Source: Daphnia carinata
Taxonomy: Eukaryota
Length of the DNA: 64,000 nt
NCBI RefSeq assembly: GCF_022539665.2
Contig: NC_081331.1
Location: 10,168,001-10,232,000 of the forward strand
Direction: 5' to 3'
Numbering within the stretch: position 1 is the first letter of the stretch; the number at the start of each line of letters is the position of its first letter. The translations under genes were made by a program, and so were the position numbers. The notes beneath the pieces are model-generated. The model was not told the origin of the DNA, did not search any database, and worked only from the letters and a program-made list of their open reading frames with translations. Positions 8,644 to 52,787 of the stretch are shown here, piece after piece.

Positions 8644-9120
8644 TGATGTCTAATGAAAAGCACCTAATGTTTCAAGAGATAAAAAACAAAATTTGGGTTT
8701 AGATTTTCTTTTTTGCTTCATGCCGAAAACAAGTTGAAAAAAAAAACGGGTTTGCTTAATGACGGGCATAAAAAAAAATAAAAATGGGCCGATGTCTTAG
8801 ATAAGCCGAGATTAGGCAATCGATGGTAACTGATCGTGATGTAAGCACCACTTTGGTTGCGTAGGCATGGACTCTTCAACGCACGTCATCGAAATTCTTT
8901 AACAAACTAGTTTTTCTTTTCGTTTTTCACAACAAGAATATTTGAAACACACATAATTCTTTTTTTAAAAATCATACATTTAAAACGTATTAAAATTACC
9001 TATATATTGAATAAAAAAAAAGAACGTCAACACACACACACACGACGAAAACGAGAGGAAACTGTGCGACAAAAACACGAAGAGCCAAAAAATTCGAGAT
9101 TCGAGAACGAGCCAACTTAC

Positions 9121-26503: not shown

Positions 26504-27852
26504 ATGTCGGAAATTGAAGAATTATCGCAGTTTCTCGCTTTGGATATGCGACTAGATGTAAAGGCCCTAGCACTACAACAGACCCTAGGTAACTACTGAG
26601 TTTTTCATAAACTGTTTCAGTTACTTAATCTGTTTCCATACAGGATTGACAGGTACCACCGATGGAAGGCACCTTTTGATTAACACACCATGCATTGTTA
26701 AGAACCTCTGCCAACTTTTAAATGATAGCCAAAACTCAGTTGCAAAAGATGCAAGCTTGGCGCTCATCAACCTTTCAGCTGACGAAGAAGTCATACCAGC
26801 TTTGCTTGCTGAAGCGACAAATATTGTCGAACATATGTTGAAGATCATAAGCAATCCTGAACACAACCTTGCTGATCCTGCTTGTATGGTGTTGTCAAAT
26901 CTTACACGGTCGAAACTTGGAAGTGAAAAAGTGTTTCAAAGTATGGATGGAAATTTAGACAAATATGTTGACATATTCTGCCAAGAAAAATACAACAAGA
27001 AAGGTGCACGGCTCCACTATCTTGCATCTGTATTGTCCAATTTGAGCCAACTTCCTGCTGTGAGAAGGTATTTGCATTACTCACCGTATGCCAATTGTTA
27101 ACTGCACTATTTTTTCTTTCTCTTAGTTATATTCTGGACCCATCTCGGTCATGCCTGCAGAGGCTAGTTTCTTTTACAGATTACAAGGATTCCATCAGTA
27201 GAAGAGGTGCTATTCTTGGACTGATAAAAAATTGCTGTTTTGAAACAGGTAAACTGTTGCCAGAATGCTAATATGATTCAATCCTGCAAAATTATTTCAT
27301 TGCTGTGCAGACCACCACGAATTTTTACTGAGTGAAGCTGTCGACTTGCTCCCCAAGTTACTTATTCCTCTAGCCGGTCCCGAGGAGTTCGACGAAGAAG
27401 ATAACGATAAGCTACCCATCGATTTGCAATATTTGGGTGAAGAGAAAACTAGAGAGCCTGATCCTGACATACGTAAAATGCTTTTGGAGGCATTGACCCA
27501 GGTATTCCTACTTATACTAGATTACTGTGACGCCGTAAGCTACCTCTCAATTCCTATAAAAGTTATGCGCCACTAAATTTGGACGTGAATACTTGCGCTC
27601 AAAAAATACTTACGTCATCCTCCGTGAGCTCCACAAGTGGGAAAAGAACGAAAATGTTTTGGTAATTCTTGAACATTTGGTCAACATACTGATTAGGTAA
27701 TATATAGCCTGTAATTATTTTTAACGTCACAGTTAATAATTGAATCCAAATAATGTAGGTTCGAGCACGAAATCGGCCACGACAATCTCAAAGAAGTAGA
27801 AATTCCGGATGAAATAACTGAAAAATTTAATGCTTTAGAGCCTGCTTTGTGA
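26504..27852 (+). CDS. HGH1: HGH1 homolog (FAM203, eEF2 chaperone), 6 exons: 26504-26588, 26644-27067, 27127-27248, 27311-27501, 27563-27696, 27759-27852
   Basis: GT-AG spliced ORF MSEIEELSQFL...ALINLSADEE...LADPACMVLSNLTR...RRGAILGLIKNCCFET...LLPKLLIPLAGPEEFDEEDNDKLPIDLQYL...REPDPDIRKMLLEALTQLCATKFGREYLR...YVILRELHKWE, the hallmark HGH1 motifs. Confidence 0.9.
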
Positions 27853-28202: not shown

Positions 28203-31200
28203 TTATGGAAGGTATCCCAAGGAATTTTCTAATTCACTTCGCTTCGAGAAACCATTCTTATTGTTCCGGTTTGCGCCTCGAAAATGCATCGAGCTGTAAG
28301 CATCATCAGTGGAAAGCTCAGACGCCGTGTCTTCGGTTGCCTCACTGTCATCAATGACAATATCCGTGGTTTGGTTGAGCTTGATGTTGGAAAACATGGC
28401 CGCTATTTCGGTCGTCTTCTTAGCCGAAAGCGCACCTTCTGGCACCGCCTTCGTGATGGAACGATGGTGGTGTTGACTGTGATGAGTCGATCCAGCTGAT
28501 GAGGTTCCTCGGTAAACAACCTTGCCCTTGGGGTCCACTGCCGACACCATCAGAAACTGGAATAATAGGCTATTATTACAAGGAATCCAATCAAGGATAA
28601 AAAGAAACCAAAATAAGGAAAACAAAATCAATAAAAACAAATTCGTACTTTATTGCCACGAAACGAGTTTTGTGACTTTAGTGATCTATCGCTAGAGGAA
28701 TTCGAATTCCTCCGGCCCTCGCTAACGGAACTCAGATTTTCCAAGCTGAAATTCCTCGATGTCCGTCCGCTGCTGCCCGTCGAATCATAACTTTGGTATC
28801 CGACCGATTCCGCTGGGCTGGTTTTACGCTGCTGTCGTTGCTGTTGGCTGGAAATCGAAACTGGACCGCGGACGAAACTGTTGCAACTCGTCGAATCCAT
28901 TTCCGTCTCGCTTGATAAATACGAACTACGGCTTTTCCTGCGTAAAATCTCTGGCTGTTTAGCGAACGAACTTTTGCCGTTAGCCGACTTGTGGGCCGGC
29001 TCAGTCATGGCTACCACATCCGAATCTAATGACGTGTCACTTAAATAAGAGCTTAAACTCTTTTGCCTCAAAGAAGATGCGCTGGACAACGTAAAGCGGG
29101 TAGATGGCGCGGAAGGCTTAGTTGTCGTTGCTGGAGCGGAATGTTGCAAATTAGCCGTATTTCTTCGCCAGGCAGTTAATGGAGACTCGGCTCCGGATAA
29201 AGCAGACCAGGACGTCATACTAGCCGATTTTCTTGCATAATTCGGACGATTCTTTGTAGGCTTAATGTGAGGTGGATGTCTGACGGCCGGTTCGGGCAAA
29301 CTGTCGTGGCTTGTGTCTGTGTCATCAGAGTCGAGACGGATGCGATAAACTGGAGCCCCGCTCGACTTGCTGATTCTCTTTAACGAGCAGTAACATCGTT
29401 CAGCGTCGCTGTAATCAGTGGTGTCTTGCGACTGTGTTTCGTTGAATGAACAATAGCATTTATGTGAACACGATTCACTGTCATAGCCGCATTCAGAACA
29501 GGATGCACTGTAATCAGGCGCTTTGTTGACGATGCTGTTCTTGTTGTTGGCGACAACAGACCTCGGTGGCAACGGCGTCTTGGGATTGAAATGCTTGGTT
29601 GGGAAAACCAATGGAGCCACGGAAACAATGGAGGGCTCCGGGCTCTTAATAATTTTAATGTTCTTAATTAGCTGAGGCTCGGATGCTTGTTTCTCTTCCT
29701 TGGTAACAGAGTAACCGGTGGATGCGGAGCGGGCAGCGCCCCATTTCGAGAAAGACTTTTTGGTGGCTCTCAAGACGCTACTGATGCGTGAAGAACTGGT
29801 ACTGTGCTCAGCGTCCGAATCCCGTCCGGCCGATTTATTGGTCCCGTTTCTGGTGATATCTGCTTTGGCTTTCGACTTGGTTTTGCTCAGATTACTCGTC
29901 TGGTGCCTCATTATGTTCTTGGAGCGCTGGAACATCTCGTCCTTGCTCAGTGTCAAGGCTAGTTTCATCAGCATCTCTTTGTAGGCCGGCGTCAAATCAT
30001 TGAAAGACATTCGGTCTTTATTGACTATTGTTTTCAGGACATCGTCTACACTCCGAACACCTTCATGTTTCTGCGCAAAGTAAGAAATGCGAATATTAAA
30101 AAAAAAAACCGAACTTTAAATAGAATCATTAAAAATTGTACCTTTAATTCTTCAAAAAGTTCGGAAAAGGAGTAATTTTGTTGTGGAACGGTCATGAAAC
30201 TCTTGCTTCGCGGAATGGCTACTTTGGTGAGTATGTCTCCATTGTTACCGTGATCCGGCCCGTCCAACCCATCTGACGTTAATACCTCGCCCAAATGTCG
30301 CTCAGACACGCTACGTTTAACAACAACACGGCCGGTGTTACTCCGTTGGCTAGCGTTACGCATACTGCGACGTAAATTTGCTTTGCCTTGCGAAGATCTC
30401 GTTTTATTTTGACTTCGTCGGATACTCTTCCGTCTTTCAAGGCCTCCATCAAGAGGCTTTGAGGATTTCTTGCGTCGCGGCGGGCGAACGGGCTGCGTGA
30501 AACTTGAAGTGACTGAACTCTCGCTCCAATTAGAGACACTGGTCGAGGGCGAGTAGATGGGTTGAGCAATTTTGTTAACGGGAGTAGCAGATGTCGGCGG
30601 AGGTGGTGGTGCCTGTTGTTGCGGTGGTTGTTGCTGCTGTTGCGATGATTCATTGTTTTTCATATTGCGCAGCAGGGCCTGGTAGAGATTAGCTGCAATA
30701 ACAATGGCGTCTTCGGGATTGTCGCAAACGAATGCGTGACATTCCAAGTTCTTTGGAGCCTGCGTGTTGCGCATGACGCAGGTAAACAATGGCGGGTGGA
30801 AGGTGGGTGAAGTCACCCATTCTCCGTCATCAGCCGGGCTCAGCGGGTGGAAAAGATTCTGTTTGTCCTGATTCTCCGGATCGCAAATGAGCGGCAAAAA
30901 GGCAAACTTTCGCCCGCCGGGCTCGGAACGTGCCACAAACTTGACGGCCGCCCAAACGGCAATAGTGGGAAATGGGTTTAAGATCTCCTTAGGAACAGAG
31001 GGTCTACGATTGTCTGACAAATAGTATTGGATTTTCAAACCGGCTGGAGAAATTTCCATTGTACCGCGGTAGATTTTATTCCTGTTCGCATTTTCATGCT
31101 GCCGATATTGGCTATAAAGCTCTTTCAATGGAAACTGGAGCGACTCCAGGCTTGTAGCTCGGCCTGGAAGGGATAACGAGCCAAGATAATCAACTTTGTA

Positions 31201-31959
31201 CTGATTGGTATTGGTCATTGATGATGAGGAAGGCGGCGACGGTGGTGGCACGGCCGGAATCGGTGGAAGAGGAACATTTTGCTTGTTATGCACTGCTTTT
31301 TGAGTAGGTAACGGGTAGTCGGAACGGACATTGATCACCGCTTTATGATTCGTTATGTTGATAACGGACGAGCTCGGATCATTCACGGTCGATGGTGACG
31401 ACGTTGAGACGTGATGGTTCATCGCCGTTTTGTTCGATTGCTGGCCGTTGCTATTTGTTGATGCATCTTGGAACATCTTCTCAATTTGCGCTTGAACGGC
31501 TGTGCGGGCCTCGTTGAAACGCTGGGCTCGACTCTCAGGTGTTGAATCACGCATCAACGTGTGATTTACCTGATTGTTGACTTGAATGTACGTCGTCGAA
31601 TTATTTTTGGAGGCCGGAGTGGCTGGAACAGGTGATGTGACGCTTCCGCGTTGTTCGGCCAAAACCTTTTGGAAATGCAGTTGCAAATGTTCCATGGTTG
31701 GTTCATCCACTGCCGCGTCATCTTCTTCCTCGATGAGCGTCTTGTGGTTCTCGCTCGTGTGGCGGCGGAGATGTTGTTGCCGGAACAAGCTGTCGATTCT
31801 TTCCTTGTAGACGGAGCTGTCCAGAGTCGACGCACCACTGTGATCAGATATGAGAGTTCCGGTTGGGCTACCGCCGTTCACATCACCGTTGTTGCCGTTG
31901 CTGTTCACCAATCGGAATGTGTAGCCCCGTTCACCGGCTTCCGGGCGGTATCTCACCAT
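28203..31959 (-). CDS. Large PTB/PID-domain, Ser-rich protein (~1197 aa; resembles the Drosophila CG12581-type family). Exons 31959-30142, 30070-28649, 28556-28203
   Basis: Three long ORFs join in frame through two short phase-0 GT-AG introns. PTB-like segment YKVDYLGS...HPPLFTCVMR...LECHAFVCDNPEDAIVIAANLYQAL; C-terminus ELENSLGYLP. Confidence 0.8.
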
Positions 31960-34514
31960 TCCTTCTTCTTGTACCTGTTAAGAAAAATAAACAACGAAAA
32001 TGAACCAATTGAAAAGGAATTTTCTTCATCAATTCCCAAGAACAAGACAGTTGAAAATAATGGCGAAACACTAAACAAAAAAAAAAAAAAAAAAAAACAG
32101 TTGAAGAAAGAAAGAAAAAAACAATTCCGGCTGAGATGAAAGAGTGCGCGGGAAACGATCACAGCTGGCAGGCGGCCAAGACTTGCCGGGGGTCTTGAAT
32201 AGAAATAATAATAAAATATCGTAGTGAGTTAGCAAATATAGCACCTTTCCTTTTATCGTATAAGAAATCTAGATTCGAATATATGCGATTGGAGAACAAC
32301 AGAATAGCATCTACGCAAAAAAGAATTAGTTGCCCAATCCCAATAGCACAAACCATTTTGTTGTGTCAATAGTTTATGGCATTCCCATTTTAAGGTAACA
32401 AGTCATCTGGAAAGATCGCCTTGATAATGAAAACATAAGACCTGATAACCACCCATTTCAAAAAAATTTCCCATTTTGCTTCATTTTCACAGAACATTTT
32501 CTTTTCAAGGTCGATGGCTACTGCGAGTCCACTGAACTTCTTTCGTTTCTTTCTCTATTACACACTCGTTTGCCAGAAAAAAGTTTCTTCTTCTTCGGTG
32601 CCTATGGGATGTTGGCAGTGGGCACGGTGAGGCGGCAATCGGTGGCTGCCTCTTTAGTTCCAGACAACAGATGGTCTCTTACTTTTTCCTCGAGACCAAT
32701 AGCCTTTCTCTACCCTCCCTCTCTGCACGCACTTACACTTTTTTTTCTTCCTGAGCCGAAATTCCCCCCACCAGGGCGCCTTCAGGGCGACATGTCTGAA
32801 TAATTTGATCTAGTCTGCATTAACGTTTTTTCCTTTCTTTCTAGTATTTTCTGTTTCTTATAAAATATGGTATTTAAAAAGCAATCAGCTTCACACACAC
32901 AAAAAAAGATACTTTCCGTACTTGAGTATACATTCTCCCTCTTCTACCCTCAACTAGCACCTGCCCGCTTTGCTTTGATTAATAATTGCCCAACGGGACT
33001 AATCCATTACTATGAAATAGCCTTGCAGAGACGCATGTTTTGTTTTTTATTTTCTTAGCTTGTCGGCTTAAGGATACGTTCGATGGCTCCCAACTTCAGG
33101 GGAGGCATCATTTCGATGTCTTTGACCTTCACCCTACGTGTTGGGATCGTTTCAAATTGAGCGCCACCAGCACCTGCGCACTGCTCCCTATCACGTTACA
33201 AAATCTAGACGTTTATATTAAAAAGAGGCGACGATCATCGCAATACCGCCTTTTTTATAACGTAATCGGCTACTCTTCGGTGTCACTCAGTGTCGTTGTA
33301 ACGCATTGGGAGTGAGAGACGGAGCATTCGAGCGCGACACCGTGATAAATTTGAGTTGGGCGGGCATTGCTTGTCAGGAAAAATGGAAAGCGCTTGGCTG
33401 GTCAAGCGCATCCAAGAAGTTCTTCTTCTTCAAAACTGCCGCCCCAACTCATAGTACGGTTATGAATATTTGCACCGTATACGCAGAGAAAAATAAAAAT
33501 AAATAACACAAAAGCAAACCATACGACAACGGAATGAACAAATACCTTCATCCGCGCCACGGAACACTGGTCAACGCTACTGAAGCTCTCATAAGAAACT
33601 AAAAGCTTTCCATCGTTTGACATGGCAAATCACCTTTTGTTTCTTCTTTTACTAACAAACCCGGAAGCCTTTTGGGAGGTGGTGAATAAAAAAAAAAGGC
33701 ACCTGATTTTGTGTGATTCTTTTTCCTGCTTTCTTGAGTGCATACATGTTTCCGTCTTTCTCCGGACAGTAAAAAAAAAGTATGAAACAATAATAAATGA
33801 ACTTGCAAACACAGCTGTCGTGTTCCCGAGCGGAATTCAACAAAAGGATGAAAAGAAAAAAACAAATCGTAATGACGAAAAAAAGCGCGACCAAGTTCGA
33901 AATGTGGTCTGACGCACACCAGCTGGTCGAACCGTGACCAACAAAAGAAAGAGGGAAAAAAAACGGCGATAGACTCACGAAATTCAAGAACGTTTTTCCT
34001 GTAAATCAGCTAAATTAGGAAGGAAGGTAAGAACGGGGAAAAAAATCGGGAAAGTGTTGTGTAATCAAGCAGTTTCGTGCTGTGCTCTAATATGTTTACG
34101 TTACTTGCACCGAGGAAAATCGATAAAAATTGATGGGCTGTGAGCTCGTAGAGTAATCGAAAAATGGTAACAACGAGAGAAGCTAAGAATTTATCGAGCA
34201 CGAGAGTTGTTGCGCCGGCACGCTTCGCTGACCTCGTAAACGACCAGAAAAGAAGAACTAAAACTTGAATTTATCTTTCCCACCGTCAGGTTGAACGACA
34301 GCTACTTGTGTTCTCTTCACGTACGAACAATTTCCCGAAAGAGATACGACCGCCTAATCTTCGCCTTTTTATCTGCGCCACTTTGTTCTGACAATCGAAT
34401 GTGTCAGTGACTTTGGCAACGCTTTAAAAAAAAATCTGAGTGATCTAACTAACTAGCTTCGTTGCTAATTTCGCTTTAGGAACAACAACCGATTATGAAG
34501 AAAAACGACTTTAC

Positions 34515-34918: not shown

Positions 34919-37364
34919 CTGCTGACATCAATACAATGCATGCTGATTTTTTGTGAGATCCAATCAGTCCTCCAGGACAAAAAAAGACACGGTACCAAAA
35001 GGACAAGGCCCAGCTGTCGTCCAGGATATTCACTTCCGTGGAATCTGGAAAACCGTTTACATTCTACAATTAACGAATTAAATTGCGGGAAAACACATAC
35101 AATACGACCTTGAAAATGCAAGTTTTTTTTTCTTCTCCTCATTCCCTTGACTGATGAAGAATTTTTGCGATGCCAATGAGGAGGGGCTATTGTCCGTCTT
35201 TTTACGTGACAGCCTTTTTTGGATGGTGTAAGATCCACCGAAGAATAAACCTAAGGAATGAAGAAGTAAATGACTGAGTTATAGGTAATGTGTCCTGAAT
35301 CATCAGAGCGTCTTCTTTCTCAACATAGCTATTGAAATGAAAAATTCCAAGCTGGGCCAATTCTTCTTTTACGTTGTTATTCCCGTCTTCCGTCGTAAAT
35401 CGCTCAGTCGTAAATTCGTAACACGACCCTCTTAAAAAAAAAAAGGCGAGATTCATCTGATCCGATCAATTCAAAAGCTACTTTTTCCTTGAGGGATGGG
35501 AAGCGTATCTACTACTAAACATGACTATTTGGAAAAGTCCACAATAAAAAAAAAAATGATACAAACCTTGTCCATCTCTTCCCCTTCTTTTATTTATTTA
35601 CATTTTTTTTAAAGCCGATAAAACCAGTGACGCTCCAGGTGAAGTATCTCGTCATCTCGACTGGAACCTTGCGGTCAATACGAAGGTTGAGCAATCTCGT
35701 AAAGGTTCCCAGCCCCTGGTGTTTCCAAAGAGAGATTCACTGCTTATTACCGCTACTACAAATATGGAAAAGGATAAGAATGCCATGATGGATAAAAAAA
35801 GAAATCGATGAGGTTGTCGACACAAATCGGGTACGCCTATTTTCACAAATCGGAAAAATTCCACGCTAAATCCTCTTCCTTTCCGGCCCAATTATTCGCT
35901 CCTAGAATCGGAAAAACATTTTTGCTTTTATCCATCCCATCCGGATGAGGAAGAATCTAAAAAGAATCAATATCCTTGTGGGAAAAGAAGAATGGCGACG
36001 GTATGTCGTATAATTACTTGTCCGATCTTGTGCCAATTGGCGTTGAGAATTGTAGAGGACCATCCAGACCGGAAAGGCTTTTAATAGAAACAAACGTCCA
36101 TAAGAGATAAATCACTTATTGTAGGTTAGATAACAGCAATGGAAATTTATATCTTTACATGTGAAAGAATGGCAGAATTGGTCGAGGCCGGCAAGGATGA
36201 GGAAATATTAACGGGCATTGATTACTAGAGTGGGAAAAAAAGCGGTATACACTTGTATAAAAATGTCGTTTCACTGAAGAGATGCACATTTCTTTTGTTT
36301 TTCTCTGACTTTTTTCTGACCGTTTGTGGCTTTTTTCTCCATGCGGACGTCAGCCGGTTCTTTTCTTCTTAGACGGGCAAAAACGTTATTCGCAGAAAAA
36401 ATGTGAAGAAAATGCATTTTATATTTCTTGGGACGTAAGTACAGTAGAGGCTGGTTTTTTTCAAACATCCTGCTGGCCCCAGTGTTGAGAAATCACATAA
36501 CTAGACCCATTGACGTTCGGGAAACTTCTACGACTGAACAAATTCTATTATCTGTTACGTCTAAGTTTTGAAGCAAAGATGGTTGTAAAACGCAACGAAC
36601 CAGAGACGACGACGAAGGAAGTAAAATAACGGTGCAACGTCCGCTATCAACATCCATCTTGCTTTAGACCTAGTCTTTGAAGACATTTATTGAAAGCAAT
36701 CATCGATCGTAGTAATGTTCGGTGATTTAGCAAAATCCTAACTCAATAGCTGTGACTTCGATTGGTACAAGTTTGGGCGTATAACCACATCAAACGATGG
36801 TTTTCCTGGTATTCGAAACTTTTTTTTTAACACAAGTTTAAAGCAATCGAAGTATTTTTAATCAAAAACGCGCAGCGAAACCTAATAATAACAACGGACT
36901 ATCTTTACAACGTTGATGCTCCACCGGTTATCCATAGACATTGTATGCGTGGCGACAAGGGACGTCTTCGTTTCCCAAGTCGGAAACACCTGAATCGCAC
37001 ACTCAACGCACACAGAATCCCATAGCGAAATTGTAAGCTCACCTGAAGCGTTTCCAATTCCCACCATCACCCGATGTCGGTGACGAAAAGCAACAGCGGA
37101 AAGAGGGGGACAACAAACGTATCCTAAGCTTTTTCGTCGTTTCCCTATACGATCAGATTTAATACATACTATGATGTACATAAACATTTGTTTATTTTCT
37201 TTGTACTTTTTACTTAACAAATTTTTTAGTGATTTATACGGGATTAGAACGCAACACTCGGGAGAGCTCAGCGATGTTTTAGTGTGTAACAAAACAAAAA
37301 TAAAAAGAAAGCTTAATCTGAGTTTTGAGACTTTTCTATCACATGATAAAAAAAAAGCGGACGA

Positions 37365-37439
37365 AAAAGGCAAAAACATCAGGACATGGAAGATTTGTTA
37401 ATTAAAAAATTTTTACTCTCACGCCTTCATAAACCTTTT
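37365..37439 (-). promoter_or_regulatory. SECIS element (type II-like) in the 3'UTR of the SelH gene
   Basis: Minus strand AAAAGGUUU-AUGAA-GGCGUGAGAGU-AAAAAUUUUUUAAUU-AACAAAUCUUCCAUGUCC-UGAU-GUUUUUGCCUUUU. It has the AUGA/UGA core, an ~11-bp helix II, apical AA, and helix I AAAAGGU/GCCUUUU, about 150 nt after the stop codon. Confidence 0.85.
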
Positions 37440-37589: not shown

Positions 37590-40209
37590 TTAAGCTAGGG
37601 CTTCCTTTAAGCCAGCAATCAAAGAATTAGGATCCGGAAATTTGAGACGTCGTGGCGGACCACGCTTAATTCCGCTCCATAATATAGTCTCTGAAAAACA
37701 AGATCAAATATAGGTATGTGACCTTTTGGGCAACCCCAGCTAATCTAAACGAAAATTGCCATACCGACACCATGGGAATTGGTCACTATGATTTCGAACG
37801 CCCCCCTACGCGGAGCCGAAACATTCATTTCCACCACCAGGTCAGCGCAATGTTGGAGGAACAGCTCTTGAATTTCAAGAGCCTTCCTCTTGAATACGGA
37901 TCAGGATTTGCTATGCCATAACCACACTATCACGGACAACCTTTCATGCAAACGAAAGTAAGGTATGGTGGCACTTACCAATGTTCCATTGCGACCCGCG
38001 ATGAAGCGCGAGGCTTCTTCATGTTGCCATTGTCATTATTTTCTCCTTCAGAATCCTACGGAAACGAAGGTTCAATATTAATTTTTATACTAAACGTGGA
38101 AACTGGAAAACAAACTGACCCGTTTTTTTGCACGCGCCCATCTCGTCGATGCCCCTTTTTTACCAGCAGCTGACAGTTTCTCGTGTGTGCTTGGTTCGTC
38201 TTCCTCCGATTCACCCGCGGAATTCTTTATACCAATAACCAATTTAAAAAAACAGACCGACATATAGACTCCTTAACTAAAAAACTTGCTTGTTGTTGCT
38301 GAGCGTGTGCCTTTCGTGTCGCTGCTGCCTTTCTCCCCGCCTCGACCCTAATTTTATGCAATCGGGCAGCTTTTTCATCTTCATTCTCGTCACCCTCTTC
38401 TTCTTCAGCCGAACCCTTGGAAGAAAAATTTAATGAAAGATGGCTCATTATCTGTGAATTACCATACGATGTTATACCTCGCCCTTTTCGCGAGCCCATC
38501 GGGCTGAGGCTCCTTTTTTGCCGATTGCCGACAATTGTTCGTGTAAAACCGCATCGGCCTCTTCGTCCGACTGCACTCCAGGATCCTATTGAGAAATAAT
38601 CTTCCATTAGAATGTACTTCTCAACTGGATACATGATATTTAAAAATAAACCTGCTCCTTCAGCCGTTGCTTACGTGTCGCCATTGATTTCTTTCCTGCT
38701 TGTACTCTGATCTCATGCATCCGGGCTTCCTTCTCGTCTTCGTCTTCTTCTTGTTCTTCACCCTCACCCTGATCGCCGCCCTTAACATAAAGATACGGAA
38801 TTAGGCATACATTACTCGATACAATGATATCGCCATTGATTTCGCAAATTAGACGCTGACTAATTAACGTCAATATTTACACCGTCATGCTTACTTGTCC
38901 TTTGTCGTACGACCATCTCGCTGCTGCGCCTTTCTTACCGATGGCTGACAACTGGTCGTGCAGGACTGCGTCAGCCTCTTCATCCGACTGTATTCCAGGA
39001 TCCTTAAAAAAAAAAAATGTTTTCTGTTTAAGCAAACCTATTGGATTTGAATCTTCCAAGTTGGTAACCTGTTCTCTGATATGTTGTTTTCTTGTTGCAA
39101 TTGCTTTCTTCCCTGCTTCTACTCTGATATTGTGCAACCGTGCTTCTTTATCCTCTTCTCCTTGATTCTCTTCCTCCCCCCCATTGTCCTTTTCAAGTAA
39201 AAAAAAAATGGTAAGTAAGAACTGGTACAGTATGCTCCCATGATTGTTTTCGAAAGTGAAAGACCAAAGGAGGGAGGATACTGCGATGGTCAACCTACCT
39301 CATCGTTGTCCCGCGACCATCTAGCTGAAGCTCCTTTTTTACCGATGGCTGATAACTGATCGTGTAAGACAGTGTCTGCGTCTTTGTCTGATTTGACGTT
39401 AGGATCCTACCAAAAGTAAGATTATGGAATTATAAGTCCAACCTTCTGCTATAAATACTATACAAACCTGTTCTTTAATGTGAGCCTTTCTTGTTGCAAT
39501 TGCTTTCTTCCCTGCTTCCACTCTTATTTTATGCATCCGATCTTCTTTATTTTCTCCTTCTCCTTCCTCTTCTCCTTCCTCTTCAAAATTTTCTTCTTCT
39601 TCCACAGGTTCCTCTTGAAATTCCTCTTTATACGCTTCTTTGTCATCTTCATTTTCTTCGTTCATTTCATAGTCTGGATCAGGACCCTTGCAAAGAATAC
39701 CAACATTACCAATAAGCACAAAATTACAAGCAATTGGTAAATCCAATGCTGAACTCACTCCTTCTTGTTCTTGTCTTTCTTTTGACCACCTCACTGAGGC
39801 ACCCTTCTTGCCAGCTGACGCAAGTTTTTTGTGAGTGCTAGGTTCTACATGTTTCCCTCCTGATTCCTGCTATAGAACAAAACATTGCAATTGTTGGTAG
39901 TAATAAATGAAGGTCACCATTTCTACTAACCTTTTTGCTTTTATCAAACTTCATTGTTTTCTCTTTTTCTTCTTCATCAGCCATTTCTTCAAGTTGTTTC
40001 ACCTTTGTGTCCTTTCCTTTTGGTTTAGCAGCAACCAATTTAGCTTTTGCCGCAGCCCCAGCAAGGGGTGGTTTTCCGTTTGAAGATTTTGATTGTTCGG
40101 AATTCCAGGATTTCGATTCTGGGATAACATCTTCAATTATATCATCTGCTCGGATGGCATCCGCAGCTTTCTTCTCTGCAACTTCTGCAGCACGTCTTCG
40201 CTGGGACAT
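37590..40209 (-). CDS. SELENOH: Selenoprotein H (SelH/BthD family) with a long repeat-containing N-terminal extension, ~578 aa, 13 exons: 40209-39931, 39869-39759, 39686-39468, 39406-39299, 39188-39069, 39002-38895, 38780-38652, 38585-38478, 38415-38290, 38224-38120, 38055-37979, 37910-37765, 37690-37590
   Basis: The spliced C-terminus reads VAMEHCKS-UGA-SVFKRKALEIQELFLQHCADLVVEMNVSAPRRGAFEIIVTNSHGVETILWSGIKRGPPRRLKFPDPNSLIAGLKEALA*. This aligns by eye with SelH (IEHCxxU...PRRGSFEV...LWTGIKKGPPRKLKFP). TGA is at 37903-37901 and all exons keep frame. Confidence 0.88.
38120..39869 (-). repeat. Exon-level tandem protein repeat, alternating B-A-B-A-B-A-B-A-B
   Basis: Type B (5 copies, 35-37 aa) contains HxxLSAxGKKGASARW. 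Type A (4 copies) is an acidic run followed by R[LM]HxIRV[EQ]AG[KR]KAxATRK. Each repeat is one phase-0 exon. Confidence 0.9.
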
Positions 40210-42581: not shown

Positions 42582-43323
42582 TTAGTGCCTCATATAGTAG
42601 TCTATTGCAGTAGAGAATGCTGCAAATCCTAATGCTCCTACAATTCCTGGTTTAAGTCCAGCTCTGAGACCAATCAGTCCACCAGTGATTCCACCAGCCT
42701 ACAATTAAAGAATTTTTATTTAAAAGTATGTTGTAGGTTATTTCAGAAATACATACATAAGTTCCATTTTTCCAATCTCCTTTTCCTCTATACTATAAAC
42801 AAAATAATGCATTATGCAAACAATGGTATTTACAGCAACATAAACTGTACTCACAGATTCAATGGTGCACTCTACTGCTGAAAACATAAGACCAACAACA
42901 GCAAAGTTTTTGGCATAGCTAAGGGTAGAGAATTTTAAATCCCTGAAGATTTCTCTTGCTGACTGTTGGGGTGCATCAGGTGCTGTGATATTTGGACTGA
43001 CACTGGCACTGAACAAACCCAATGCAGCTCCCAAACCGTACCCTGCAAAATTCATTAAAAAGCTGCAAGATGTGGAGCTTGTTTCTAAATAAGAGTAATT
43101 ATGAATTACCCATGACACTTGCAACGAGTGACTTGAAAGCACATGATTCAAAAACTGCTTCTACTCGTTTCTCATCAACACTTTTTATGTGAATTGGACC
43201 AACTGTTCTGGGGATGATAATTTGTTCACGATATTTGCAGTTGTTTCCGACGAAGTATTTCATTAAGGAATCCATCTCCTTCGGCGAAAAACCAACGGAA
43301 GAATCTGTTTTCGATTCCTCCAT
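42582..43323 (-). CDS. TIMM22: Mitochondrial import translocase subunit TIM22, 4 exons including a 36-nt exon ([12 protein letters not shown])
   Basis: [29 protein letters not shown]...[31 protein letters not shown]...[37 protein letters not shown]. Confidence 0.93.
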
Positions 43324-45398: not shown

Positions 45399-46427
45399 TT
45401 TTGAAGAAATCTAAAGAAAACAGAAATGAGTTAATAACTTTTGAATAACTGGCAAATTTGCAAAAGAACCAACAGCTTTCTTCTTTGATCCAAACAATTC
45501 AACACAGCCACAAAACATGAGGATGATTGAAGAGGAACGACTTACCGAATTGACTATAGAGCAGAGAATGTTATAGAGATAGCCGGCAGAGAAACTTCAC
45601 CTAAACGCGGTGAGAGGAACGTCCGTTCAACGTGAGTAGTGAAGCTTAAAAGGCGACCAGAAACCGATTCTTTGCTCCGAAGTAAATTTTTTTAAATATC
45701 AAACGAAACACTACAGACCGCAGCCAGTGGTTAAGAGATTATTAGAGCAAAAGAGAAATTGAAGTACACACATCGACTAGACCTTCACCCATTAAGTTTG
45801 ACTAGAAACCCGTTATTGAAGTTGATTGGTTAACTTGTTTCCCTTTTCCCCTAACCAGTTTGACAGCATTCTGCCATCTGGCGACAATTGCAGTTTCCCT
45901 ATAGGGATATTATTTAGATGAGACGCCACAACGAACGACCTGTTTTTTGTATGATATTTCTCGCAACAGATGACGTTAGCTATGAATAGGGATCCACACA
46001 CGTTTCGGGGGTTTCAAGAAATGTTTTACACGTTTTGTTTATTGCCGATTGTACTTGTTTGTGTGTTTAGTTTGTTTATTGTCAGTTGATGGCTCATAAA
46101 CCGGTGTTGCTGTGCAAAATTACGCTTCCGTTTTTTAACCATCTTAATTAGGGAAAATGCAGCAATAAAGGCTAATGTTAGCTTTGCCTATTGTTCATGG
46201 CCATCGCTAGATGGCGACGATGTGAATACTTTGTATTTATTGCCGAATATTTGATGCAATGTTAGCGCACCAGTACGCTACTATGGCAATCCGTTTTACA
46301 TAAAAAAAAAAAATCGCACTTTTTTCTTTTTTTCCGACACGTAGCCATCTACCGCTCAGACTCGTTATTACTGGCGTAGGCAATTTCAGTCCATTGGATG
46401 CCATTCGCAGTTAGTTCAGTAGCGTGG

Positions 46428-47226
46428 ATGGAGAATAACGCGTGGCTGGAGGAACAATTGAAAAATGGATAAGATAATACAATAAAAGGATGGTAAGTAT
46501 AAAATTTATTATATTGGTTTTCAATTATTAATTATTTTTTATTAGATCAAATTATGAAGCTGCAGGCCCAATTATTGGAACAACACAAAATATTAGATAA
46601 CAGCAAAGCTAAGGATGGTAAGGCCTAATACGTAATGATTCTATTTATTTGCTTTTATTCATTTGTGTTTTGTAGCTCAAATTTTGAGTCTACAAGCTCA
46701 GCTAGGGGAAAATAACAAATTGGAACGGAACAGTTTCCAAACAGTGAAGGAGGTTTTTCAAAACTCTTCCCTAACTGAACGTGAGGATGAGTTGGCATTA
46801 GGCGAACACAGTCAGGTACCTAAACTTTTCAAATAAGAATTCAAAATAAGTATGGAATTTTAACAAACAATTATTTATTGTTTTGTTATTCAGTCCACCA
46901 CCTGACAGTGTGTTAAAGTTAAATTCTGTTAGTGCTGCACTAAAAGAATCGTTAGTAATAAGTCCATGCAGTGAAGGAAGTGAACAATTGTGGGATCGTA
47001 TTTGGGCCGAAAATGGGTGTGGTACGGAAACCGAGATATGGCACGAGTTCAACATAAAGCATGGATTAGGTACTTTTCGGTTTTTTGTCTATCGAAAAAG
47101 TATTTTTAATGCTATTATTTTGCATTCACAGAATTTTAGCAGGGGATCAAGTCAAGTCTGGAAGTGTTACAAGATGGAAGAGTCAGCCTACAGTTGAAAA
47201 AACACTGAGAGTGGATTACCATTAAG
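46428..47226 (+). pseudogene. Decayed spliced gene (coiled-coil-like N-terminus) in the left palindrome arm
   Basis: Regular GT-AG exon/intron pattern (GATG|GTAAGT, GATG|GTAAGG, CAG|GTACCT) with peptide pieces QIMKLQAQLLEQHKILDNSKAKD and QILSLQAQLGENNKLERN, but with in-frame stops and a frameshift. Confidence 0.5.
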
Positions 47227-48523
47227 GTATGAGGTAAAGTAATTGTGAGAGATGAGTATGCACATTGTCTAATGAGAAGTACTATCTTGTGTGAATGAAT
47301 CCTGTATAACAGCAATCCTTTATAGTTCTGTCACAGCTAGAAGCCTCAAATAATTCTGCTTCCCTTGCTAAAGAACAACTTGTCCTTTACGCTCAGAGTG
47401 TTGGTGAAGCTGGGTACTTAAATGGCCCTAAAGATGTTTCACTTCACTGGCATTGCAGCGATGAACATCATACATGGACTCTTTAGGTATGAAAGGAATT
47501 TTCTTGAAAATTTTTTGAATTTATGATGAAGTTTTTCTCCTCTTTTTTGCCAACCATGTCTAAACTACAAAAAAAAATTTATCCAATAGGAAAGGATTTT
47601 CAGCATACTGGGAACACAACTATCAACAATGCTACATTCTAGGGGTGCTATTTTATCATTCAAGAGCCTTATACAATGATTTTCATCTACAATTTGTATG
47701 GCCTTTCCCAAGCTTCTGTCAGAAGTTGAATCTATGAGTCATGTAAGTCACATGAGCAACAATTGAGATGCTTAATGGTGTTGTTTTTCTTTTCTCAGTG
47801 TAGGTTAATAGTAACATTGGATCTGAAAAAATTCTTGGTTGGGGCATGACACTGAATAAATTGTAATGATTGGATGGATGACATGATATTTCTATACTTC
47901 ATTCGGATTCCCGAGACGGTATTTTATATTCAAAAAATTGAAGTGCATATCTGGGCTCCCTTCCTTTCCGTAGCCCCGTTTCCCCTCGACTCGTAATAAG
48001 CCCGTAGGGGGTCATGCCCCTACTGTACGGTATATATAAAAATAACATATACCGAGGTTTGGAGGGCTCTGGCCGGAAAGGGGACGTGGGGGTCCGCGTA
48101 GTCCGATGATGTGTTCACGGAGGGCGACGTGGCTACCCGCAAATCCGAACTAAAGGTTAATCGCTCCAGTAAAAATGTTCCAAATCTTCGGCTCTTCTTC
48201 CGGCTTCTCTTAGCCAATCACCGGGTAATCTCCCCGGTGGGTCAACAAGGCAGTGTCTCCCCCTGCCTGGGTTGACGGCAACTTTTGAAAGGGCTATTGT
48301 GCCTTTTTAAAGTTGCAAAATCATTTATATGTGCAGAGTAATGTCAATACAATTTATTTTTTTAAACAATAAAAGCAAAACTTGTGTTTTCAACTTTATT
48401 CTTACTGTGCGCTTGTTTTTCCTTGCATTTTTTTTTCCACACATATAACCACAATTATGAGTTATCTCTAGTTGTTGATACATACCTGAGAGCCTTATTT
48501 GTTTTGATTGAGCTTTCAATTTT

Positions 48524-48948: not shown

Positions 48949-50317
48949 AAAATAAAATACAAAATTACTTCAGAAAATATTCACAAGTTGTTCCTTGAGT
49001 ATAAGTTGATGAATACAAAAAGTGTAATGAATAAAAATTAAATGCTTAAAGATAAACAATTAACCACTGGAAACAATGCTTACCATCAAAGGTGGCAAAA
49101 ACAATAAAGGTGAATTGAGCAAGCTGTGTGAAAACAGCGAATACAGACAAAGAAAGAAACAAATTTTGCAAAAAATTTTTTACAAAAAAAATTTTATTGA
49201 CAATTCTCTGCACATTAGAATTATTTTTGCAACTTTAAAAAGGCACAATAGCCCTTTCAAAAGTTGCCGTCAACCCAGGCAGGGGGAGACACTGCCTTGT
49301 TGACCCACCGGGGAGATTACCCGGTGATTGGCTAAGAGAAGCCGGAAGAAGAGCCGAAGATTTGGAACATTTTTACTGGAGCGATTAACCTTTAGTTCGG
49401 ATTTGCGGGTAGCCACGTCGCCCTCCGTGAACACATCATCGGACTACGCGGACCCCCACGTCCCCTTTCCGGCCAGAGCCCTCCAAACCTCGGTATATGT
49501 TATTTTTATATATACCGTACAGTAGGGGCATGACCCCCTACGGGCTTATTACGAGTCGAGGGGAAACGGGGCTACGGAAAGGAAGGGAGCCCAGATATGC
49601 ACTTCAATTTTTTGAATATAAAATACCGTCTCGGGAATCCGAATGAAGTATAGAAATATCATGTCATCCATCCAATCATTACAATTTATTCAGTGTCATG
49701 CCCCAACCAAGAATTTTTTCAGATCCAATGTTACTATTAACCTACACTGAGAAAAGAAAAACAACACCATTAAGCATCTCAATTGTTGCTCATGTGACTT
49801 ACATGACTCATAGATTCAACTTCTGACAGAAGCTTGGGAAAGGCCATACAAATTGTAGATGAAAATCATTGTATAAGGCTCTTGAATGATAAAATAGCAC
49901 CCCTAGAATGTAGCATTGTTGATAGTTGTGTTCCCAGTATGCTGAAAATCCTTTCCTATTGGATAAATTTTTTTTGTAGTTTAGACATGGTTGGCAAAAA
50001 AGAGGAGAAAAGCTTCATCATAAATTCAAAAAATTTTCAAGAAAATTCCTTTCATACCTAAAGAGTCCATGTATGATGTTCATCGCTGCAATGCCAGTGA
50101 AGTGAAACATCTTTAGGGCCATTTAAGTACCCAGCTTCACCAACACTCTGAGCGTAAAGGACAAGTTGTTCTTTAGCAAGGGAAGCAGAATTATTTGAGG
50201 CTTCTAGCTGTGACAGAACTATAAAGGATTGCTGTTATACAGGATTCATTCACACAAGATAGTACTTCTCATTAGACAATGTGCATACTCATCTCTCACA
50301 ATTACTTTACCTCATAC

Positions 50318-51116
50318 CTTAATGGTAATCCACTCTCAGTGTTTTTTCAACTGTAGGCTGACTCTTCCATCTTGTAACACTTCCAGACTTGACTTGATCC
50401 CCTGCTAAAATTCTGTGAATGCAAAATAATAGCATTAAAAATACTTTTTCGATAGACAAAAAACCGAAAAGTACCTAATCCATGCTTTATGTTGAACTCG
50501 TGCCATATCTCGGTTTCCGTACCACACCCATTTTCGGCCCAAATACGGTCCCACAATTGTTCACTTCCTTCGCTGCATGGACTTATTACTAACGATTCTT
50601 TTAGTGCAGCACTAACAGAATTTAACTTTAACACACTGTCAGGTGGTGGACTGAATAACAAAACAATAAATAATTGTTTGTTAAAATTCCATACTTATTT
50701 TGAATTCTTATTTGAAAAGTTTAGGTACCTGACTGTGTTCGCCTAATGTCAACTCATCCTCACGTTCAGTTAGGGAAGAGTTTTGAAAAACCTCCTTCAC
50801 TGTTTGGAAACTGTTCCGTTCCAATTTGTTATTTTCCCCTAGCTGAGCTTGTAGACTCAAAATTTGAGCTACAAAACACAAATGAATAAAAGCAAATAAA
50901 TAGAATCATTACGTATTAGGCCTTACCATCCTTAGCTTTGCTGTTATCTAAAATTTTGTGTTGTTCCAATAATTGGGCCTGCAGCTTCATAATTTGATCT
51001 AATAAAAAATAATTAATAATTGAAAACCAATATAATAAATTTTATACTTACCATCCTTTTATTGCATTATCTTATCCATTTTTCAATTGTTCCTCCAGCC
51101 ACGCGTTATTCTCCAT
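50318..51116 (-). pseudogene. Mirror copy of the decayed spliced gene in the right palindrome arm
   Basis: Reverse complement of 46428-47226. Confidence 0.5.
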
Positions 51117-52787
51117 CCACGCTACTGAACTAACTGCGAATGGCATCCAATGGACTGAAATTGCCTACGCCAGTAATAACGAGTCTGAGCGGTAGATGGC
51201 TACGTGTCGGAAAAAAAGAAAAAAGTGCGAAGTAAAAAAAGTAGCGTACTGGTGCGCTAACATTGCATCAAATATTCGGCAATAAATTTTTTTTCCATGA
51301 ACAATAGGCAAAGCTAACATTAGCCTTTATTGCTGCATTTTTCCTAATTAAGATGGTTAAAAAACGGAAGCGTAATTTTGCACAGCAACACCGGTTTATG
51401 AGCCATCAACTGACAATAAACAAACTAAACACACAAACAAGTACAATCGGCAATAAACAAAACGGATTGCCATACGCTACAGCGCTAGCGCGATGCAGCA
51501 GAAAGTCGGGCTTATTTATCAGTAGGGCTTAAAATTTTTTTCTGCAAAAACTGACACTCATCGGAATTGGTTGAGCATCACAGGATATACTCAAGATTGA
51601 ATACTGATTCCGGGGAAATTGCTATTTTTTTCATTAAGTTAATCGTTTTTGAAATACACCGAATATTTAGCACAGTGCTAGCGCGCCAGTACGCTACAGC
51701 ACTAGTGCGATGCAGCAGAAATATTCAGCCATCTACACCATCCTACGGTTAATTCCCTCCCTTCAAAATTGGCAGACGAATTCCCTGCAACCAAAAGAGT
51801 GTGCTAGGCGGCTGATTCGAATTTTGGGCAAGGAATGATAATACAACACCTTGTATACATTATAAACAATTATTAAAGCACTCTGGAGGGCCAAAAACAA
51901 ACAAGGTGAGACATTATGGCATGAATGATTGCCTTCTATCCCTAATTTATTAATACGCTTACCAACAGGGCCTCCGTGCAGCGCAACGCCGCATAAAAGT
52001 TCACACATGCATCCGCTTCCAATGCGCGTCACCATTAGCTGTGCAGTGGCGTATTTAATCGGGGTCAGAACAATAGAATCGGAATAATCGGAATCGGCGT
52101 TGCAATAACCGATAATTTCAGTGCGATAGCAGAACGCTCCTTTCTGAATGAGTCGATGAAAGAGTAGGTCAAACGACGTTCAAGTATCTTGAAGATTTTT
52201 GCTTATGCATTCAAGATCAATCAAGATGACTTACTCGTGAAATGAATATATATCTGTATATTGGCGTTGATGATAGGGATGTAATATAGACACACACGCA
52301 CATTAATTCACAGCACGACATATATAAACATTTATACTCTTCTATTTTTTGTTTTGTTTCTTTCTCTCTTATTTTTATGCTGTTTTTGCTTTTTATTGTT
52401 TTATTAATAACGGTGGCTTTGCATATTTATATAGACCTGTCATGACTTATTGATCGGCTTCAGCCAATCGGATTTTGTAACTCTTCCACATGCGAATAAA
52501 TCAGAAAAAAAATCAACATGATTTGGGCGCTAGGATGCACATCGAATAACATATAGTTGCAGGGTGTGTGTTGCATAATCAATTAGCAAAAAAAAAAAAA
52601 CGTGCCGGTTAGCTATAAACATCTTTGAGATTATGGTTGTGTTTTGTCAGCAAACATTGACTTGAGTATTGGTAGAATCATGCGATATCCAATATAATAT
52701 GTACATATACACCGACACATATAAAGCTAGAATTTCCTTTTTTTCCCATTCTGTCTGTTGCTTCTTCTAATTTCTCATGATATTTCT

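What the first reader, a model, noticed from the sequence alone, without database searches (positions are those of the whole stretch)
37590..40209. Hidden selenoprotein H fused to a ~470-aa modular acidic/basic repeat array
Seen: 13 GT/GC-AG exons splice in frame into one ~578-aa ORF whose last ~90 aa are a SelH thioredoxin-like domain with CKS-UGA. The Cys codon is split by an intron (TG|C, 37979/37910), so ORF finders miss it. Known: canonical SelH is a small nucleolar redox protein with a basic N-terminal NLS, and Drosophila BthD carries a C-terminal Lys-rich extension. Inference: here a large repeat array sits between a SelH-like basic N-terminus (MSQRRR) and the catalytic domain, an architecture I do not recognise from any described selenoprotein. 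It may couple a Sec redox domain to a disordered nucleic-acid-binding or stress-protective scaffold. Automated annotation would probably truncate it at UGA or split it.
Basis: partly seen in the sequence, partly recalled or inferred. Interest (0 to 1): 0.9.

Follow-up and report, generated by a model that had tools for sequence, protein, structure and literature searches.

The report
Water-flea selenoprotein H with stress-repeat tail
This water-flea gene joins a selenoprotein H redox domain to a 380-residue tail of charged repeats that weakly resemble microbial and seed stress proteins; database models cut it off at the codon that likely encodes selenocysteine, and the tail would likely hold the enzyme on DNA or RNA in the nucleus.

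Summary
The gene model is confirmed. Thirteen minus-strand exons give 578 codons with one internal stop, UGA at codon 500 in C-K-S-U. Residues 1-499 match RefSeq Daphnia carinata XP_057371701.1 letter for letter; that model ends at the UGA. D. sinensis (501 aa) and D. pulex ('nucleolin-like', 307 aa) models also end there. The last 86 residues score 87 bits against outgroup SelH. A weak SECIS-like element lies 150 nt past the stop (20 bits, cut-off 35). The array is about 380 aa, not 470: nine old phase-0 exon repeats of two types, under purifying selection (pN/pS 0.12-0.30), with lineage-variable copy number. New here: both repeat types recur in stand-alone hydrophilic repeat proteins that weakly match KGG, LEA_5 and Con-6. 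The Daphnia repeats themselves fail those Pfam cut-offs. None of 25 non-Daphnia SelH loci showed the repeat, though few had long upstream sequence. No reads were seen, so Sec insertion and function are untested. Verdict: a real, mis-annotated new variant of SelH, architecturally like mammalian SELENOV.

The parts
39931..40209 (-). Exon 1, residues 1-93, non-repetitive N-terminal region (ATG at 40209)
   Evidence: homologous region in D. sinensis, D. pulex and unnamed P0084
39759..39869 (-). Exon 2, diverged A-type repeat; tandem acceptors at 39869 (RefSeq) and 39866
39468..39686 (-). Exon 3, long acidic tract plus B-type repeat
39299..39406 (-). Exon 4, A-type repeat (108 nt, phase 0)
39069..39188 (-). 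Exon 5, B-type repeat
38895..39002 (-). Exon 6, A-type repeat (108 nt)
38652..38780 (-). Exon 7, B-type repeat
38478..38585 (-). Exon 8, A-type repeat (108 nt)
38290..38415 (-). Exon 9, B-type repeat; ends at a GC donor
   Evidence: same junction in RefSeq model
38120..38224 (-). Exon 10, last A-type repeat, also kept in D. pulex
37979..38055 (-). Exon 11, linker with basic patch KKPR and the first two bases of the Cys497 codon
37765..37910 (-). Exon 12, SelH/Rdx domain part 1 (C-K-S-U and GxFEI motif)
   Evidence: TIGR02174 E 6e-5, 23 bits, below the 34.2 cut-off as an isolated 45-aa piece; Pfam Rdx E 0.02
37901..37903 (-). In-frame TGA, codon 500, predicted selenocysteine
   Evidence: TGA at the same CxxU position in 5 intron-free outgroup loci
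37590..37690 (-). Exon 13 coding part, SelH domain part 2 (LWSGIKRGPP motif) and TAA stop
37366..37438 (-). SECIS-like element in the presumed 3' UTR (AUGA at 37430, AAA loop, GA)
   Evidence: Rfam SECIS_1, full model, 20.1 bits, below gathering 35; pattern scan; folding energy not better than shuffles
37191..37196 (-). First canonical AATAAA after the stop, candidate poly(A) signal downstream of the SECIS
   Evidence: candidate only

Best explanation
This is one Daphnia selenoprotein H gene whose 13 exons encode a 578-residue frame: a 93-residue leader, nine duplicated charged repeats, and a C-terminal Rdx domain in which a UGA is likely read as selenocysteine; the repeats would likely act as a flexible, multivalent nucleic-acid-binding tail holding the redox domain in the nucleus or nucleolus. 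Shown: the exon structure, the domain, the same junctions in three named species, and purifying selection on the repeats. Predicted by AlphaFold: each unit is an acidic disordered stretch followed by a basic helix, broken at a G-K-K turn in the internal A units, with no overall fold. Inferred: the SECIS directs Sec insertion, and the CxxU centre works as in other SelH proteins. Inferred: the basic helices bind DNA or RNA without sequence specificity, as the short basic tail of human SELENOH is thought to, while the acidic tracts bind basic nuclear proteins or damp the binding. Inferred: when selenium is scarce, termination at the UGA would give a 499-residue tail-only protein. The tail grew by duplication of phase-0 exons from a KGG/LEA-1-like motif.
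For: Identity with the RefSeq model up to the UGA. D. sinensis and D. pulex models join repeats to exon 11 and the CKS junction; unnamed P0033 joins the repeats to exon 11. Three more divergent unnamed fragments run from a repeat exon into exon 11 or its shifted frame (P0058, P0061, P0064). Introns of 61-114 nt leave little room for a gene boundary. The domain downstream of the UGA is intact: 87 bits, and 87% identical over 45 aa in another genome. pN/pS is 0.12-0.30 in 9 of 9 repeat pairs, with near-saturated synonymous sites. Helix pLDDT is about 72-88 in most array helices, pTM 0.21. Human SELENOH is nucleolar and binds DNA without sequence specificity (PMC10646972, passages). One outside repeat relative has a weak HMG-box match (P0078, E 0.001).
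Against: No reads, proteomics or localisation were seen. The SECIS is weak: 20.1 bits against a cut-off of 35, folding z of -0.5 to -1.1. No AT-hook or RKRK motif is present; the basic-cluster scan found only three short clusters. The array is net acidic (96 D/E against 64 K/R), which argues against strong DNA binding by the whole tail. Copy number and unit type vary between species. No call tested nucleic-acid binding. The W at the Sec position in P0004 could be TGA read under another code or a real Trp.
Confidence: 0.45

Rival explanations
1. Same single selenoprotein, but the array works as a hydrophilin (group 1 LEA/KGG/Con-6-like): disordered when hydrated, helical on drying, protecting proteins or chromatin in resting eggs while the Sec domain handles oxidative damage.
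For: Array GRAVY -1.55, Gly 9.3%, no Cys. Both repeat types recur, often in the same B-then-A order, in outside stand-alone repeat proteins. 8 of 30 proteins scanned have a KGG, LEA_5 or Con-6 match. An HMM of outside A units scores the D. carinata protein 116 bits (best shuffle 8) and E. coli YciG 24.7 bits (0 of 939 reported shuffles as high). The nearest Atlas clusters to P0083 are Em/GsiB-type, score 0.84-0.85, a lead only. Daphnia resting stages survive dry diapause (PMC10684647, passages).
Against: The Daphnia proteins miss the cut-offs: KGG 9-14.9 bits against 20.4, and no LEA_5 match. Only 1 of 30 proteins passes a KGG/LEA_5/Con-6 cut-off. Daphnia-only HMMs score YciG at about 5 bits or below, and hhalign probability is 8.8%. 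The outside set was found with the Daphnia profile, so the reciprocal test is partly circular. The array has 5 Trp, whereas most hydrophilins lack Trp (PMC3691520, passage). No expression data.
Confidence: 0.27
2. The locus mainly yields two products: an array-only protein (UGA stop, or the RefSeq X2 splice form) and a short ordinary SelH started inside exon 11; the full-length fusion is minor.
For: RefSeq X2 ends at MEH, which needs a splice from exon 11 to an acceptor starting with A, for example skipping exon 12. Met483 and Met494 could start 96- or 85-aa proteins, and a TATAAA lies in intron 10, 34 nt before exon 11.
Against: Met483 is not kept in D. pulex or P0033. TATAAA occurs in 2 of 12 introns, at a background of 0.04 per 64 nt. 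All three named species join exon 10 to 11 to 12.
Confidence: 0.13
3. The array is a largely neutral expansion of the ordinary acidic/basic SelH tail, acting only as a spacer and localisation signal.
For: Outgroup SelH proteins already have charged tails of about 50-115 aa (U at 55, 60 or 118). Copy number ranges from 4 to 9.
Against: pN/pS is 0.12-0.30 between old copies. H, G-K and R positions are invariant across 12 aligned units. The B motif is near-identical between D. pulex and D. carinata.
Confidence: 0.1
4. The UGA is a true stop and exons 12-13 are a decaying relic, so the product is the 499-aa protein the databases list.
For: Three named database models end there; the SECIS score is below threshold.
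Against: The downstream 78 codons are stop-free across an intron, score 87 bits as SelH, and are conserved in another genome. The UGA sits exactly at the CxxU position.
Confidence: 0.05

Closest known systems
Selenoprotein H (SELENOH / Drosophila BthD), Rdx family (Pfam PF10262, TIGR02174)
   Same: CxxU motif, GxFEI motif, C-terminal W-S/T-G-x-K-x-G-P-P motif shared with the 25 outgroup loci it was used to find, and a basic patch before the domain.
   Different: Sec at residue 500 of 578, against 44 of 122 in human (PMC13437758, passage) and about 55-118 in outgroup loci. It carries a 378-aa exon-duplicated repeat array and lacks the RKRK/AT-hook.
Mammalian SELENOV
   Same: An Rdx CxxU selenoprotein enlarged by an N-terminal region of unknown function (PMC10650576, passage).
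   Different: SELENOV derives from SELENOW. Its extension is recalled as Pro/Thr-rich, not charged helical repeats. Independent origin.
KGG (PF10685; E. coli YciG), LEA_5 / group 1 LEA (PF00477; Em, GsiB) and Con-6 (PF10346) hydrophilin repeats
   Same: Helix-G-K/R-K-G/A core, very hydrophilic and Gly-rich, tandem repeats; linked through outside relatives that match these families.
   Different: The Daphnia units fall below all three cut-offs, have long acidic spacers (about 76-79-aa B+A period) and a conserved Trp, and are fused to an enzyme domain.
Unnamed stand-alone repeat proteins (P0054, P0062, P0073, P0083, P0087, P0088 and others)
   Same: Closest sequence relatives of both repeat types, often B then A, with acidic spacers.
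   Different: No SelH domain is evident in their sequences (no Rdx match); function unknown. Only P0088 has a named source (a Methanomassiliicoccus MAG). Shared ancestry and convergence cannot be told apart on 20-aa motifs.

Membership tests
Selenoprotein H / Rdx | CxxU motif with in-frame UGA | tested here: met
   C497-K-S-TGA500; same position as TGA in 5 intron-free outgroup loci
Selenoprotein H / Rdx | Rdx domain with GxFEI(V) motif | tested here: met
   GAFEII present; motif as given in PMC10650576; 87 bits against an HMM of outgroup proteins, one of which passes TIGR02174 at 46.8 bits. The isolated exon 12 is below the Pfam and TIGR cut-offs.
Selenoprotein H / Rdx | SelH rather than SelW/SelT subfamily | tested here: inconclusive
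   The C-terminal GPP motif is recalled as SelH-specific; the outgroup loci are unnamed and no SelW/SelT comparison was run
Selenoprotein H / Rdx | SECIS element in the 3' UTR | tested here: inconclusive
   Full-length SECIS_1 match, right strand and place, core motifs present, but 20.1 bits against 35, E 1-2, folding not above shuffles
Selenoprotein H / Rdx | N-terminal RKRK NLS / AT-hook | tested here: not met
   Only QRRR, KKR and KKPR clusters; this feature is described for vertebrate SELENOH and is also not evident in the L009 outgroup sequence
Selenoprotein H / Rdx | Sec incorporation, oxidoreductase activity, nucleolar location | not testable with these tools
   Needs experiments
KGG repeat (PF10685) | Pfam gathering score 20.4 | tested here: not met
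   9.0, 13.9, 14.9 bits for three long Daphnia-type proteins; none for D. pulex
Group 1 LEA / LEA_5 (PF00477) | Pfam match and 20-residue tandem period | tested here: not met
   No LEA_5 match in the Daphnia proteins; B-to-A spacing is about 38 aa in Daphnia against 20 in outside relative P0083
Hydrophilin (compositional class) | High charge and Gly content, very hydrophilic, few Cys/Trp | tested here: inconclusive
   GRAVY -1.55, Gly 9.3%, 0 Cys but 5 Trp in the array; D. pulex Gly 5.5%
Hydrophilin (compositional class) | Induced by water deficit or dormancy | not testable with these tools
   No expression data could be examined
TIM21 (PF08294) | Single contiguous domain match | tested here: not met
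   The summed score passes the cut-off (28-32 bits against 24.1) only from three partial repeats matching about positions 50-120 of 145; absent in D. pulex. Treated as spurious.

The most novel reading that the evidence does not exclude
Cladocerans fused a KGG/LEA-1-like stress-protein module to selenoprotein H and amplified it by exon duplication. The result is a selenoprotein-hydrophilin chimera that shields nuclear DNA in dormant, drying resting eggs while its Sec domain removes oxidants, with selenium supply switching between the full-length enzyme and a tail-only protectant.
Probability: 0.2. Interest if true: 0.85.

Novelty: new variant of a known kind. Interest (0 to 1): 0.6.

Why it matters
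Daphnia is a standard model for ecotoxicology and dormancy. In three species' annotations this gene is filed as 'uncharacterized', 'hypothetical' or 'nucleolin-like' and cut at the UGA, so its redox domain is absent from those protein models and from any proteomic search built on them. At about 64 kDa it is three to four times the length of the other SelH sequences seen here. It gives a direct test of what the poorly understood SelH tail does, because species differ naturally in repeat number. If the hydrophilin link holds, it offers a candidate protein protectant for resting eggs and a first animal example, within my searches, of this unnamed repeat family.

Tried and rejected
No sequencing runs and no whole genome were available, so read support, expression and a search for a second SelH gene in this genome are missing; no second copy lies in the window. 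The word-based homologue search with exon 12 found 1 protein among 5 candidates. The first search with exons 5-6 found 2 of 99 candidates and missed D. pulex relatives found later, so its blanks are weak. The repeat gave no match in phages, plasmids or viral contigs, no usable Atlas hit, and only E about 1 in PDB sequences (actinobacterial IHF). One bacterial contig matched 20 residues, and plasmid DnaD-domain proteins matched an outside relative at E 0.6; both were rejected as non-significant, though they show the motif is generic. The TIM21 Pfam match was rejected. NUMOD3 matched one outside relative only (P0088). The AlphaFold model (2 sequences, pTM 0.21) was not used for a fold search. 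The spliced SelH domain was not folded. No complex prediction was run. A second SECIS-like pattern at 36703 has no Rfam support and lies beyond the first poly(A) signals. Earlier-findings look-ups returned nothing. Paper searches with no description of this gene. Most supplements of PMC4244043, including its selenoprotein table, were not searched; subscription papers and selenoprotein databases were out of reach.

Full report
1. Observation. The minus strand from 40209 to 37590 carries 13 exons separated by 12 introns of 61-114 nt, 11 GT-AG and one GC-AG. Spliced, they give 578 codons (577 with the second of two tandem acceptors of exon 2; about 64 kDa, pI 5.4). There is a single internal stop, TGA at 37903-37901, codon 500, three residues after Cys497, whose codon is split TG|C between 37979 and 37910. 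Exons 1-10 all end in phase 0.

2. Identity. A search with exons 5-6 returned 2 proteins among 99 candidates: Daphnia carinata LOC130692579 and D. sinensis GHT06_009482. RefSeq isoform X1 (XP_057371701.1, 499 aa) equals my model letter for letter up to the UGA and stops there. Isoform X2 ends three residues earlier, which needs a different acceptor after exon 11. The D. sinensis model (501 aa, 92% identical) and D. pulex XP_046447076.1 ('nucleolin-like isoform X3', 307 aa, 64%) also end in E-H-C-K-S. An unnamed 570-aa record (P0033) has exons 1-11 and then diverges. So three named annotations link the repeats to the SelH junction and treat the UGA as the end. I could not see the transcript evidence behind these models, and no reads were examined.

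3. The C-terminal domain. A degenerate scan of metagenome contigs for the exon 13 motif gave 25 loci, none of them Daphnia-like. Five of the 25 read as intron-free CxxU genes with TGA at the same position, and U lies at about residue 55, 60 or 118. One of these passes TIGR02174 (SelT/SelW/SelH) at 46.8 bits. An HMM from their domains scores residues 492-577 of the Daphnia model at 87 bits; the reversed protein scores 2. The isolated exon 12 piece is below the Pfam Rdx and TIGR02174 cut-offs. None of the 25 loci shows the repeat by tblastn or by motif scan, but only 7 of 25 hold 2 kb or more upstream. Human SELENOH has 122 residues with Sec44 (PMC13437758, passages). The subfamily call SelH rests on a recalled motif; no SelW/SelT comparison was run.

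4. SECIS. Rfam SECIS_1 matches 37438-37366 on the coding strand over the whole model, 150 nt after the stop and before the first AATAAA (37196). The score is 20.1 bits against a cut-off of 35, E 1.1-2.4. The AUGA, AAA and GA elements are in place and the predicted fold has the two expected stems, but its energy is no better than shuffles (z -0.5 to -1.1). My own pattern, written after seeing this site, found 2 sites in 128 kb of both strands (37430 and 36703) and hit only 7 of 25 outgroup loci. The SECIS is likely, not proven.

5. The array. Exons 2-10 (residues 94-471) are nine units: five A-type and four B-type, alternating; HMMER also counts 9 stretches. A and B align with each other on H, G-K-K and R. 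Copies are old: nucleotide identity is 59-83%, and 10 of 12 intron pairs are no more alike than shuffles (z below 1.4; two reach 2.7-2.8). They are constrained: pN/pS is 0.12-0.30 in 9 of 9 pairs (exons 2 and 10 were left out of this test). D. pulex has three B units and one A unit. Among unnamed genomic fragments, P0058 runs from an A exon into exon 11, P0064 and P0061 run from an A or B exon into the shifted frame of exon 11, and P0084 joins an exon 1 homologue to an A unit. The layout therefore extends to more divergent relatives, with variable content. AlphaFold on a 2-sequence alignment predicts a 27-34-residue helix per B unit and a helix-turn-helix in the three internal A units, with low-confidence acidic linkers and no global fold (mean pLDDT 57, pTM 0.21). 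The array has 96 acidic and 64 basic residues, GRAVY -1.55, Gly 9.3%.

6. What the repeat resembles. A profile of 12 A and B units against 1.84 billion representatives gave 50 hits at E up to 0.001. Besides Daphnia-like exon fragments there are stand-alone tandem-repeat proteins carrying both motif types. I picked 14 of the 50 by eye as outside relatives, leaving out the cladoceran-like fragments, a 1689-aa repeat protein and five other short proteins. They hold 40 A-like and 14 B-like units, often B then A. HMMs from these score the D. carinata protein at 116 (A) and 19 (B) bits, against shuffle maxima of 8 and 6; this test is partly circular. Of 30 proteins scanned in Pfam, 8 match KGG, LEA_5 or Con-6, 1 of them above cut-off, and 1 passes NUMOD3. 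The outside A HMM scores E. coli YciG, a named KGG protein, at 24.7 bits, above all 939 reported shuffles. Daphnia-only HMMs give about 5 bits or less, and hhalign gives 8.8% probability. The Atlas places one outside relative nearest to Em/GsiB-type clusters at 0.84-0.85, a lead only. The Daphnia proteins reach only 9-15 bits on KGG (cut-off 20.4). The repeat is therefore KGG/LEA-1-like through intermediates but is not a member by Pfam. Of 10 hits looked up, only one has a named organism, an archaeal MAG. Descent, transfer and convergence cannot be separated on such short motifs.

7. Mechanism. Shown: one reading frame, the domain, conserved junctions, and selection on the repeats. Inferred: Sec insertion and SelH-type redox chemistry. 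Human SELENOH is nucleolar and binds DNA without sequence preference at about 1 micromolar, and its isolated N-terminal peptide does not bind (PMC10646972, passages). I think it most likely (0.45) that the array is an amplified nuclear tail whose basic helices give multivalent nucleic-acid binding, while acidic tracts bind basic proteins or tune the binding. A hydrophilin role in dormancy is the main rival (0.27) and is not exclusive. LEA_5 proteins are random coils that partly structure on drying (PMC2292704, passages). conF and conJ affect spore desiccation tolerance (PMC12731236, passages; their link to Con-6/KGG is recalled). Daphnia resting stages survive dry diapause (PMC10684647, passages). 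Lesser rivals are separate tail-only and short SelH products (0.13), a neutral spacer (0.10) and a true stop (0.05). The probability that a full-length Sec-containing fusion is made at all is about 0.85.

8. Novelty. Searches for Daphnia with selenoprotein H, SelH, selenoproteome or SECIS, and for six accession numbers, returned no description of this gene. PMC2500217 (passages) and PMC4244043 (passages; most supplements not searched) surveyed D. pulex selenoproteins, but the passages seen do not describe its SelH structure. Also seen as passages: PMC10650576, PMC3691520, PMC5437024, PMC10253035. Verdict: a real gene and a new variant of a known kind; interest 0.6.

Noticed in passing
window 46031-48370 and 49175-51464: Long inverted repeat: arms of about 2.1 kb at 98% identity plus 170 bp at 99%, with an 800-bp spacer. 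Could be a foldback-type element or an assembly feature.
   Followed up: partly
window 7654-8649 (-): DM DNA-binding domain (doublesex/Dmrt type), Pfam E 5e-18.
   Followed up: partly
window 26589-27098 (+): DUF383 exon, E 2e-19; recalled as the HGH1 family.
   Followed up: partly
window 42741-43160 (-): Tim17/Tim22/Tim23-family exon upstream of the SelH gene on the same strand, E 2e-11.
   Followed up: partly
window 28206-31977 (-): Long open frames (643, 495 and 148 aa) of a large gene; weak PTB/PID match, E 1e-4, below cut-off.
   Followed up: partly
window 36655-36703 (-): Second SECIS-like pattern 887 nt after the SelH stop; its hairpin has z -2.1 but there is no Rfam SECIS match.
   Followed up: partly
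proteins P0054, P0062, P0073, P0077, P0078, P0087: An apparently unnamed family of long hydrophilic repeat proteins with a G-[KR]-K-G-A-x-x-R-W motif and acidic spacers; P0078 has a weak HMG-box match.
   Followed up: partly
protein P0028: Unnamed fragment with a short RGG-rich N-terminus followed by a single A unit; it could represent a minimal ancestral tail, but its link to a SelH domain was not shown.
   Followed up: no
loci L004, L012, L019, L024: Two SECIS-like patterns downstream of one outgroup SelH gene.
   Followed up: no
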